Origin: the human T2T-CHM13v2.0 reference genome, Homo sapiens
Direction: 5' to 3' (one strand)
Assembly: GCF_009914755.1 (NCBI RefSeq)
Contig: NC_060926.1
Length of the DNA stretch: 64,000 nt
Shown here: positions 4,014 to 6,256 of the stretch, one piece after another
Numbering within the stretch: the first letter of the stretch is position 1
How the letters are laid out: the number at the start of each line of letters is the position of its first letter
Program-made: the position numbers and the translations under genes
Notes under the pieces: generated by a model
What the model was told of the DNA's origin: nothing
Seen by the model: the letters and a program-made list of their open reading frames with translations, nothing else
Databases searched by the model: none

Positions 4014-4685
4014 ATTCTAATATGCAAGCTTTATCACACTTCAATATATCTGGAATTACTATTCTCTTTATTACTGATAAGAGTTTAGGTTCAGGCCCGG
4101 CGCTGTGGTTCACGTCTGTAATCCCAGCACTTTGGGAGGCCAAGGCAGGCTAATCACCTGAGGTAAGGAGTTCGACACCAGCCTGGCCAACATGGTGAAG
4201 CCCTGTCTCTAGAAAAATACGAAAATTAGCTGGGCGTGTTGGTGTGCTCCTGCAATCCCAGCTACTCGGGAGGCTGAGGCAGGAGAATCGCTTGATCCCA
4301 GGAGGCAGAGGTTGCGGTGAGCTGAGACCAAGCCATTGCACTCCAGCATGGGCAACAAGATTGAAACTCCATCTCAAAAAAAATAGATAAATATATAAAA
4401 CTTTAGGTTCAATAAAATGTTAATTGAACTTTCCTTTCACATAGGAAAAGTTGTTAGCATTTGCTAAGTTGTACCTTTCCTTGATATTTCCACATTAATA
4501 TTTCTCTTTTCTAGGAGTCTCTACGAGAATATATGGCATGTTCAACTCCTTTACACTGTTTTTTAAACATGTGTTGCATGTATGTTCTGCTTTCAATATT
4601 AAAAAAACAAACTGTTTTGGAGCAGGAGTTTCCTCTTCTGTGCATTTTGGTATTCCATAGAGTACCAAAGTTAGAAATAGAGCCA
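4014..4685 (+). repeat. Left arm (probable source) of a ~670-bp inverted duplication
   Basis: Reverse complement of 5535-6209. Manual alignment gives about 17 substitutions and 3 small indels. Confidence 0.97.
4094..4395 (+). mobile_element. Alu, AluS (Sq/Sp-like), full length
   Basis: Dimeric Alu ending ggcaacaagattgaaactccatctc plus A-tail. Degenerate TSD aagagtttaggttca / aaaactttaggttca. Confidence 0.95.
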
Positions 4686-5249
4686 GAGTTAGAAATGAAG
4701 TAACAAGCTCAATAAATTACTCTTGAGTTGACTTGACAGGTGTCAGTGGGGTGCTACGCTATTCAGAATTTCCTTTTCCAATGGCAAAATTCAGCTAAAT
4801 GTCTATTTCTTGAGTCTCTGTTTTGTTGGCTAATTGGCTATTAGAGTAAACAGAAATATCATCTGTATAATCAAAATTCTAACAGGATAGGAAGGGACAG
4901 GGAAATATTCTTTAAGGAAATGAATAAGAGTGAAAAGGTTACTGAAGAAAGAGACACAGAGAATAAATGTCTTCACTACAAATACACAGCATTAATAGAC
5001 ATGAGCAGGGCACGAGCTGCCTAAATGTTTATTATATTTCCTTTTCCAGATGAGCTCTTTCCTTTTCCTTTTCAAACTGGCTTATTGTAGATCATGACTA
5101 AATATTAGAAAAATAACATCAGAAACGTGAGGAAGTTCAAAAGACCCACATTATATAATAAGATGACTTAAAAAATACATTTTGAAATATGCACATGTAA
5201 AACAAACTTACCAAAATGTTACACTGAGTGTTCTTCTGAATACATAATA

Positions 5250-5534
5250 AAATATATATGTATACATATATATGTTTGTACATATATGTATGTATGTATA
5301 TATACATATATGTATGTATATATGTATGTATATGTGCATATATACATACATATATGTATATGTGTATGTATATGTGTATATATACATACATGTGTGTATA
5401 TATGTATATATGCACACATGTGTGTATATATGCATACATATGTGTATATATGCACGTGTATATATGTATATATGCACACATATATGTGTATATATGTATG
5501 TATATATATACACACATATATACGTACATATATA
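5250..5534. repeat. Compound (TA)n/(TATG)n/(CA)n microsatellite
   Basis: About 285 bp of almost purely alternating purine-pyrimidine sequence. It is the source of the six overlapping Y/I/H/M/C/V-rich ORFs. Confidence 0.95.
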
Positions 5535-6209
5535 TGGCTCTATTTCTAACTTTGGTACTCTATGGAATACCAAAATGCGCAGAAGAGGAAACTCCTGCTC
5601 CAAAACAGTTTGTTTTTTTTAATATTGAAAGCATAACATGCATGCAACACATGTTTAAAAAACAGTGTAAAGGAGTTGAACATGCCATATATTCTCGTAG
5701 AGACTCCTAGAAAAGAGAAATATTAATGTGGAAATATCAAGGAAAGGTACAACTTAGCAAATGCTAACAACTTTTCCTATGTGAAAGGAAAGTTCAATTA
5801 ATAACATTTTATTATACCTAAAGTTTTATATATTTATTTATTTTTTTGAGATGGAGTTTCAATCTTGTTGCCCATGCTGGAGTGCAATGGCTTGGTCTCA
5901 GCTCACTGCAACCTCTGCCTCCTGGGATCAAGCGATTCTCCTGCCTCAGCCTCCCGAGTAGCTGGGATTGCAGGAGCACACCAACACGCCCAGCTAATTT
6001 TTGTATTTTTCTAGAGACAGGGCTTCACCATGTTGGCCAGGCTGGTGTCGAACTCCTTACCTCAGGTGATCAGCCTGCCTCGGCCTCCCAAAGTGCTGGG
6101 ATTACAGGCGTGAACCACAGCGCCCGGCCTGAACCTAAACTCTCATCAGTAATAAAGAGAATAGAAATTCCAGATACAATGAGGTGTGATAAAGCTTGCA
6201 TATTAGAAT
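5535..6209 (-). repeat. Right arm (inserted copy) of the inverted duplication
   Basis: Reverse complement of 4014-4685, with TA microsatellite on both sides (5250-5534 and 6210-6256). Confidence 0.97.
5828..6129 (-). mobile_element. Alu (duplicate of the 4094 AluS, not an independent insertion)
   Basis: Shares private variants (gaggtaaggagttcgacacc, gtgaagccctg, gtgtgctcctgcaat) and both flanks with the 4094 Alu. Confidence 0.95.
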
Positions 6210-6256
6210 ATATGTGTATATATGTATACATATATGTATGTTTATATCTACATATA
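6210..6256. repeat. Distal remnant of the TA/TATG microsatellite
   Basis: atatgtgtatatatgtatacatatatgtatgtttatatctacatata. Confidence 0.85.

What the first reader, a model, noticed from the sequence alone, without database searches (positions are those of the whole stretch)
4014..6256. 670-bp inverted duplication inserted into a TA microsatellite
Seen: 5535-6209 is the reverse complement of 4014-4685 (about 17 substitutions and 3 indels by hand count, ~97%), with an 849-bp spacer. The copy includes the whole Alu, its TSDs and ~380 bp of flank, so it is not a second retrotransposition. TA/TATG microsatellite lies on both sides, with only 1-2 nt of junction microhomology and no poly(A) or TSD of its own. 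Established: long TA tracts form hairpins or cruciforms, stall forks and break, and template-switching repair (FoSTeS/MMBIR, Pol theta) can copy nearby DNA. Inference: a break in the TA tract was patched with an inverted copy of DNA ~0.85-1.5 kb upstream. ~2.5% divergence suggests an ape-lineage event unless the arms have been homogenised.
Basis: partly seen in the sequence, partly recalled or inferred. Interest (0 to 1): 0.8.

Follow-up and report, generated by a model that had tools for sequence, protein, structure and literature searches.

The report
Inverted duplication splitting a TA-rich microsatellite
A 670-base stretch of human chromosome 2, Alu element included, was copied backwards into a nearby TA/TG-rich repeat millions of years ago; it is a clean old example of a common, already described kind of small structural change and has no evident function.

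Summary
4014-4685 is the reverse complement of 5535-6209, with 17 substitutions, 3 indels and an 849-bp spacer. The non-Alu parts occur only at these two places in the whole assembly. The right arm lies inside one compound TA/TG microsatellite: joining 5534 to 6210 restores a single array. There is no poly(A) and at most 1-2 nt of junction microhomology.

The best reading is a one-step, DNA-templated local inverted duplication by snap-back or template switching plus end joining. [quoted passage not shown]

- No ape genomes were available, so direction and date are untested.
- The present tract is degenerate, with a longest pure TA run of 10 nt.
- All 6 polarisable Alu differences are derived on the left arm, and differences crowd the outer end. 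This hints at error-prone synthesis and possibly the reverse direction.

Verdict: a real, ordinary, probably neutral relic in a lncRNA intron. Interest is low to moderate.

The parts
4014..4685 (+). Left arm (672 bp), the presumed source copy: unique 5' flank, Alu, unique 3' flank
   Evidence: homology starts exactly at 4014 and ends at 4685
4084..4093 (+). 5' target-site duplication of the Alu (TTTAGGTTCA)
   Evidence: read; also present in the right arm at 6130-6139
4094..4375 (+). Alu body in the left arm
   Evidence: Rfam Metazoa_SRP sub-threshold matches at 4095-4211 and 4229-4377; blastn to other Alus
4376..4401 (+). A-rich tail of the Alu
   Evidence: one substitution (4386) and one 1-bp indel against the right arm
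4402..4411 (+). 3' target-site duplication of the Alu; the right-arm copy (5813-5822) carries the doublet change at 4409/4410
4669..4696 (+). Two copies of AGTTAGAAAT with an 18-bp period; the arm ends at 4685, between them
   Evidence: read; link to the event unexplained
4686..5251 (.). Unique part of the spacer, single copy in the genome
   Evidence: query 4420-5250 matches beyond position 266 only at its own place
5252..5534 (.). Left, larger part of the compound TA/TG microsatellite (283 bp)
   Evidence: TRF; composition and runs
5535..6209 (-). Right arm (675 bp), the presumed inserted inverted copy
5848..6129 (-). Alu body in the right arm; keeps the majority Alu state at all 6 sites where the arms differ
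6210..6265 (.). Right, smaller part of the same microsatellite (56 bp)
   Evidence: 19-bp exact shared string; 21 of 45 12-mers shared with 5252-5534; single TRF array when the two parts are joined

Best explanation
One mutational event in an ape ancestor broke or stalled replication inside a compound TA/TG microsatellite. A free 3' end there switched template to DNA 0.85 kb away. It could have done so by snapping back on its own resected strand or by pairing with the sister chromatid, with 1 nt of pairing at 4685/4686. It copied 672 nt (flank, Alu, flank) in the reverse direction, let go at 4014, and was joined back to the other side of the microsatellite with 0-2 nt of overlap.

The result is an inverted duplication with an 849-bp loop-derived spacer. 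Since then the arms have drifted apart by about 2.6%. It now lies in an intron of the lncRNA LOC102724542 and most likely does nothing.

Shown: the anatomy, the sharp breakpoints, the continuity of the microsatellite, the absence of retrotransposition marks, and the presence of only two copies in the genome.

Inferred: the break in the microsatellite, left-to-right copying, the polymerase and end-joining steps, the date, and neutrality.
For: - Arms: 672 against 675 bp, 17 substitutions, 3 indels, 849-bp spacer.
- Copy number: only two copies of the unique parts in the 3.1-Gb assembly, with sharp ends at 4014 and 4685.
- Microsatellite: the right arm is bracketed by one array. A single TRF array (period 40, score 250) spans the in-silico joint 5534|6210. 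21 of 45 12-mers and a 19-bp exact string are shared between the two parts, against 0 of 45 12-mers shared with the other TA array at 33027-33538. No other TATATG-type array appears among the 17 TRF rows for the window.
- Junctions: no poly(A) at either end of the right arm. Overlap is 1 nt (A/T) at the inner junction and up to 2 nt (AT) at the outer one.
- Mechanism: fold-back priming with a loop-derived spacer is documented for large human inverted duplications, with spacers of 766-70,466 bp (PMC3907307, passages). A hybrid of fold-back synthesis at one end and end joining at the other is documented at yeast breaks (PMC11724301, abstract).
- Not an artefact: 2.5% divergence between the arms plus a unique spacer rule out a fold-back read artefact, which would give identical arms (inference).
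Against: - No outgroup could be examined, so direction and single-step origin are untested.
- All 6 differences in the Alu body are derived on the left arm, while the right arm keeps the majority state of 168 other Alus (binomial p 0.031). Adding the tail site (left-derived by inference) and the TSD doublet (right-derived), 7 of 8 events are on the left (p 0.07).
- 9 of 17 differences lie in the outer 139 bp (Fisher p 0.003, chosen post hoc; mean-position permutation p 0.03-0.04). If these are errors of the copying polymerase, the left arm would be the new copy.
- The present microsatellite is not a long pure TA tract. Its longest TA run is 10 nt and its longest palindrome 22 bp. Its fold is not better than shuffles.
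- The 1 nt of inner microhomology is below the 2-8 bp found at fold-back junctions in PMC3907307.
Confidence: 0.6

Rival explanations
1. Same kind of event in the opposite direction. The right arm, between two microsatellite blocks, is the original. The left arm is the new inverted copy, inserted between 4013 and 4686 and made by a low-fidelity polymerase that left errors, densest next to the outer junction.
For: - All 6 polarisable Alu-body differences, and probably the tail site, are derived on the left arm.
- 9 of 17 differences fall in 4014-4152, three of them within 7 bp at 4040/4044/4046.
- Excess point changes near structural-variant breakpoints are reported in human germline data (PMC4937565, abstract).
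Against: - It needs a 675-bp unique segment to have sat originally inside what behaves as one microsatellite array.
- The left-arm flanks are ordinary unique DNA with no structure-prone repeat.
- 17 errors in 672 nt would be an extreme error rate (inference from recalled polymerase fidelities).
- The asymmetry is only p 0.03-0.07, and the TSD doublet 4409/4410 is derived on the right arm.
Confidence: 0.2
2. RNA-templated break repair. A sense transcript of the lncRNA intron, which contains the left arm, served as template for reverse transcription primed by the + strand 3' end at a break in the microsatellite. This would also give an inverted DNA copy.
For: - The locus lies inside the + strand transcription unit LOC102724542 (hub annotation).
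- The orientation of the copy is what priming on a sense RNA would give (inference).
- PMC4617611 reports 17 insertion sites likely derived from RNA templates (section 9).
Against: - There is no poly(A), no splice junction and no sign of L1 involvement.
- Those RNA-derived cases in PMC4617611 were among distal templates, while the source here is 0.85 kb away, as expected for local DNA template switching.
- A-to-G differences are not in excess: 4 A>G, 4 T>C, 3 G>A and 1 C>T, read left to right.
- Nothing in the sequence requires RNA.
Confidence: 0.07
3. Several steps: for example a direct dispersed duplication followed by inversion of one copy, or recombination between the arms that re-oriented the spacer after an event with different original geometry.
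For: Arms of 670 bp at 97% identity can recombine and flip the spacer (established knowledge, recalled). The lower divergence of the inner part, 5 of 284 in 4402-4685, could reflect conversion or exchange.
Against: - It needs more events.
- The present geometry, with microsatellite on both sides of the right arm and a seamless joint, is what a single insertion gives. An odd number of spacer flips would have moved the large microsatellite block next to the left arm.
- PMC4617611 found no intermediates for this class (section 9).
Confidence: 0.08
4. Assembly artefact, or a mobile element with terminal inverted repeats.
For: None found. Listed because inverted structures can arise from chimeric reads and because a long-armed inverted repeat superficially resembles a foldback element.
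Against: - The arms differ at 17 sites and 3 indels and enclose 566 bp of unique DNA, which a read-level fold-back would not give.
- The arms are host DNA with an Alu and its own target-site duplications. Only two copies exist in the genome.
- No direct repeat flanks 4014-6209.
Confidence: 0.03

Closest known systems
'Inverted Dup' class of the 1000 Genomes phase 3 structural-variant map (Sudmant et al. 2015, PMC4617611; passages and section 9 read)
   Same: A duplicated stretch under 1 kbp (here 672-675 bp) is inserted in inverted orientation within 5 kbp of the other copy (here 849 bp). It is not associated with retrotransposition and is attributed to replication-type errors.
   Different: Those are polymorphic variants. 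This copy pair is about 2.6% diverged, so it is old and probably fixed (not tested). The paper text I read says nothing about microsatellites at the insertion sites. Its supplementary tables were not opened.
Fold-back inverted duplications (Hermetz et al. 2014, PMC3907307; passages read)
   Same: [quoted passage not shown] The 849-bp spacer lies within their 766-70,466 bp range.
   Different: Theirs are megabase duplications with terminal deletions and a dicentric intermediate, with 2-8 bp of inverted microhomology. Here synthesis stopped after 672 nt and rejoined the same locus, nothing distal is lost, and inner microhomology is 1 nt.
Fold-back templated insertions at double-strand breaks in yeast (Yu et al. 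2024, PMC11724301; abstract read)
   Same: [quoted passage not shown] The product is an inverted copy of DNA next to the break.
   Different: Those insertions are mostly about 5-34 bp and templated right at the break. This one is 672 bp and templated 0.85 kb away.
Small inverted triplications (Lei et al. 2026, PMC13334657; abstract read)
   Same: Small, local, replication-linked inverted copies with short junction overlaps.
   Different: Those have a DUP/INV/DUP structure of about 148/160/148 bp with a 30-bp spacer, so three copies. Here there are only two.
Inverted Alu pairs
   Same: The two arms contain Alus in opposite orientation, which are expected to pair in RNA.
   Different: Ordinary pairs are independent insertions. 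In the window and the chr19 sample, the best match of other Alus to this one is 86%. Here identity is 97.9% over the 291-bp Alu query. It also continues through both target-site duplications into 80 + 284 bp of unique flank.
Cruciform-forming (TA)n fragile repeats (search listings and abstracts of PMC9890227 and PMC12972899)
   Same: A TA-rich, self-complementary repeat sits at the site of breakage.
   Different: Those are long uninterrupted AT/TA runs, for example (AT)34. The tract here is a degenerate TA/TG/CA compound with a longest pure TA run of 10 nt. Its ancestral purity is unknown.

Membership tests
Local inverted duplication ('Inverted Dup', PMC4617611) | Duplicated stretch shorter than 1 kbp | tested here: met
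   672 and 675 bp
Local inverted duplication ('Inverted Dup', PMC4617611) | [quoted passage not shown] | tested here: met
   849 bp between the arms, reverse complement
Local inverted duplication ('Inverted Dup', PMC4617611) | Not a retrotransposition product (no poly(A), no L1-type marks) | tested here: met
   Arm ends read: no A or T run at 5535 or 6209. A target-site duplication cannot be judged inside a repeat.
Local inverted duplication ('Inverted Dup', PMC4617611) | Presence/absence variation between genomes (empty site exists) | not testable with these tools
   Only one human assembly and no primate genome are held.
Fold-back inverted duplication (PMC3907307) | Unduplicated spacer between direct and inverted copy | tested here: met
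   849-bp spacer. Its unique part is single copy in the genome.
Fold-back inverted duplication (PMC3907307) | At least 2 bp of inverted microhomology at the spacer-inversion junction | tested here: not met
   1 nt (A at 4685 / T at 5535); the next bases differ
Fold-back inverted duplication (PMC3907307) | Loss of distal sequence / dicentric intermediate | tested here: not met
   The microsatellite and the chromosome continue beyond 6210.
MMBIR/FoSTeS-type template switching | Microhomology at both template-switch junctions | tested here: inconclusive
   1 nt at the inner junction and up to 2 nt at the outer one. The pre-event microsatellite sequence is unknown.
MMBIR/FoSTeS-type template switching | Point changes concentrated near breakpoints from error-prone synthesis | tested here: inconclusive
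   9 of 17 differences lie in the outer 139 bp, but the polarisable ones are on the presumed donor arm.
Retrocopy / second Alu insertion | Copy limited to the element, with a new target-site duplication and poly(A) | tested here: not met
   The old target-site duplications and 364 bp of flank are copied.
Transposon with terminal inverted repeats / foldback element | Further copies in the genome and a flanking target-site duplication | tested here: not met
   Two places only in 3.1 Gb. The flanks at 4013 and 6210 share nothing beyond chance.
Small inverted triplication (PMC13334657) | Third, direct copy (DUP/INV/DUP) | tested here: not met
   No third copy

The most novel reading that the evidence does not exclude
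The left-arm-derived substitutions crowded next to the outer breakpoint may be a fossil of hypermutation made in the same event as the duplication. That would mean either that the left arm is the newly synthesised copy and the direction is reversed, or that the donor strand itself was mutated while single-stranded. On this reading the locus is a fixed, datable ape-lineage record of error-prone template-switch repair. More broadly, degenerate TA/TG microsatellites would be habitual acceptor sites for the common class of inverted duplications under 1 kb.
Probability: 0.15. Interest if true: 0.45.

Novelty: new member of a known kind. Interest (0 to 1): 0.27.

Why it matters
On its own it matters little. 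It is an intronic, probably neutral relic in a gene-poor region.

It does have some value as an example. Both breakpoints are sharp and the acceptor site is recognisable as a split microsatellite. An embedded Alu also lets some of the later changes be polarised without an outgroup. Together with ape assemblies it could therefore show three things for one member of a common variant class: which copy is new, when the event happened, and whether the copying was error-prone.

Two consequences are inferred and untested:
- Any transcript through the intron should fold into a duplex of about 670 bp, with 659 of 672 left-arm bases paired to the right arm. That is longer and more perfect than ordinary inverted Alu pairs, so it would be a likely substrate for RNA editing.
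- The arms could mediate flipping of the 849-bp spacer.

Tried and rejected
I did not ask again. The scan was limited to the window plus 200 kb of chr19. It found this structure and one pair of inverted Alus (245 bp, 96%), which is not the same kind.
- Extension of homology beyond 4014: rejected as compositional.
- Polarising the 11 non-Alu differences through older paralogues: impossible, because the flanks have no other copy in the genome.
- RNA families: all 58 matches at E up to 0.1 are below their gathering scores. The Metazoa_SRP matches are the Alus. The mir-297, mir-466 and mir-3149 matches are the TA/TG repeat itself.
- Special hairpin propensity of the microsatellite: not supported beyond its dinucleotide composition.
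- Strand-coordinated or editing-like substitution signatures: none seen.
- Literature searches: I found no paper that ties small inverted duplications to microsatellite acceptor sites. These five searches do not show that none exists, and supplements were not opened.

Full report
**Observation**

The window is T2T-CHM13 chr2:81,530,001-81,594,000 (hub note; confirmed). The repeat finder shows four colinear inverted pieces that together make two arms. A gapped alignment places the left arm at 4014-4685 and the right arm at 6209-5535, with 17 substitutions and 3 small indels, and 849 bp between them.

Each unique part of the arms, searched against the whole 3.1-Gb assembly, is found at only two places. 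Query 4420-5250 hits itself and 5535-5801 (99%, E 4.4e-127). Query 3700-4093 hits itself and 6130-6209 (94%), the second match starting at query base 315, which is window 4014. The window holds no other inverted match of at least 150 bp and at least 92% identity within 10 kb. The alignment's weak continuation to 3987 is compositional: 73 of 114 56-mers of the left array and 177 of 1000 AT-rich 56-mers of the window score as well.

**Anatomy**

The left arm holds these parts:
- 80 bp of flank ending in the target-site duplication TTTAGGTTCA (4084-4093)
- an Alu body (4094-4375)
- an A-rich tail (4376-4401)
- the second target-site duplication (4402-4411)
- 274 bp of further unique sequence

The right arm repeats all of this in reverse. 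It is therefore a copy of host DNA made after the Alu inserted, not a new retrotransposition. Neither end of the right arm carries a poly(A).

The spacer is 566 bp of single-copy DNA plus a 283-bp compound TA/TG repeat at 5252-5534. A further 56 bp of the same repeat follows the right arm at 6210-6265.

**Is the microsatellite one array split by the arm?**

Several results say yes:
- The right piece shares a 19-bp exact string and 21 of its 45 12-mers with the left piece. It shares none of the 45 with the window's other TA array at 33027-33538.
- Base composition matches.
- When 5534 is joined to 6210 in silico, TRF reports one array running through the joint, period 40, score 250 against 236 for the left piece alone.
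- No other TATATG-type array is among the 17 TRF rows for the window.

This is the main argument that the right arm is the insert.

**Junctions**

At the inner junction the arms share the A at 4685 (T at 5535), which could equally be the last T of the microsatellite. That is 1 nt of overlap. At the outer junction the first AT of the arm continues the ATAT of the repeat, so overlap is at most 2 nt. These are end-joining or minimal-microhomology junctions.

The left arm ends between two copies of AGTTAGAAAT spaced 18 bp apart (4669-4678 and 4687-4696). I cannot connect this to the event.

**Mechanism**

The anatomy is what a 3' end at a break or stalled fork in the microsatellite would produce in four steps: it switched to a template 0.85 kb away on the same strand (snap-back after resection) or on the sister, copied 672 nt, disengaged, and was rejoined to the other side.

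Each element has precedent:
- Loop-derived spacers of 766 bp and more in human fold-back duplications (PMC3907307).
- Fold-back synthesis at one end with end joining at the other in yeast (PMC11724301, abstract).

The whole outcome is a described class. Of 229 validated 1000 Genomes inversion sites, 54% are inverted duplications. [quoted passage not shown] The authors took this as suggesting a common mechanism and attributed it to replication errors rather than retrotransposition (PMC4617611).

First, today's tract is not a long TA run. Its longest pure TA stretch is 10 nt and its longest perfect palindrome 22 bp. As single-stranded DNA it folds at -70.3 kcal/mol, which dinucleotide shuffles match (z -1.19). 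Cruciform-driven breakage, documented for long uninterrupted AT/TA repeats (abstracts of PMC9890227 and PMC12972899), is therefore an assumption about the ancestral tract.

Second, direction is not proven, and one result points the other way. I aligned both arm Alus with 168 other Alus, those matching at least 250 bp out of 237 blast matches in 200 kb of chr19 and the rest of the window.
- At all 6 sites where the arms differ in the Alu body, the right arm has the majority state and the left arm the derived one. At 4098 most rows are gapped, and among those with a base G outnumbers C 45 to 7.
- Among 244 columns with a clear majority, 17 changes are shared by both arms, 5 are private to the left arm and 0 to the right.
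- The G at 4386 interrupts an AAAT-type tail and is probably left-derived as well.
- Only the doublet at 4409/4410 is right-derived, because the left arm there matches the 5' target-site duplication.
- Six of six gives p 0.031, and seven of eight events gives p 0.07.

The differences are also unevenly placed:
- 5 in the 80-bp 5' flank (6.3%)
- 6 in the 282-bp Alu body (2.1%)
- 5 in the last 284 bp (1.8%)
- 9 of 17 in the outer 139 bp (Fisher p 0.003, post hoc; permutation of mean position p 0.03-0.04)
- three within 7 bp at 4040, 4044 and 4046

Excess point changes near breakpoints are reported for human germline variants (PMC4937565, abstract). If that is the cause here, the mutated arm would be the synthesised one, which is the left arm. 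I weigh the split-array argument more heavily, but I give the reverse direction 0.2.

**Age**

The K2P distance between the arms is 0.0258. With recalled substitution rates of 1.0-1.2e-9 per site per year this gives 11-13 My, and with 0.5e-9 it gives 26 My. The Alu's own clock, 17 shared against 5 private changes, suggests the duplication falls in the last one-seventh or so of the Alu's life.

**Other readings**

RNA-templated repair from a sense intron transcript would also give the inverted orientation, but nothing requires it. Multi-step histories need more events and do not explain the seamless microsatellite joint. An assembly artefact or a mobile element with inverted termini is excluded for practical purposes by the diverged arms, the unique spacer, the embedded Alu with its own duplications, and the copy number of two.

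**Present-day role**

The structure lies in an intron of LOC102724542; the nearest listed exon starts at 19170 (hub annotation). No RNA family reaches its gathering score. A transcript of 4014-6209 is predicted to pair 659 of 672 left-arm bases with the right arm (minimum free energy -1491.5 kcal/mol). Long double-stranded RNA is thus a predictable by-product of transcription. Whether it is made or edited is unknown. I regard the locus as neutral.

**Verdict**

It is a new, unusually legible member of a known and common class, with one unexplained feature, the lopsided and end-weighted substitutions, that ape assemblies would resolve at once.

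Noticed in passing
window 33014-33538: A 0.5-kb nearly pure TA-type array (A+T 94%) with a 52-bp perfect palindrome starting at 33369. It is a far better cruciform candidate than the tract in the finding, yet nothing is inserted in it.
   Followed up: partly
window 5252-5537: The TA/TG repeat gives many sub-threshold matches to repeat-derived microRNA families on both strands, such as mir-297 (63 bits against a gathering score of 90), mir-466 and mir-3149. 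This is a low-complexity resemblance and not evidence of a gene.
   Followed up: no
window 4669-4696: AGTTAGAAAT occurs twice with an 18-bp period, and the left arm ends at 4685, between the two copies. It may be coincidence or may have influenced where copying started or stopped.
   Followed up: partly
window 4040-4046 / 6177-6183: Three of the 17 arm differences lie within 7 bp. The left arm reads as a short TA-like run there and the right arm does not. This could be one multi-base event.
   Followed up: no
window 7323-7558 (-): A third, independent Alu lies in the same orientation as the right-arm Alu and inverted relative to the left-arm Alu, at 79-87% identity. This illustrates the identity level of ordinary Alu pairs against 97.9% for the duplicated pair.
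   Followed up: no
L016:622-866 and L016:1219-1463 (chr19 sample): An inverted pair of 245 bp at 96% identity, 353 bp apart. It matches the Alu query, so it is two young Alus and not a local duplication of unique DNA.
   Followed up: partly
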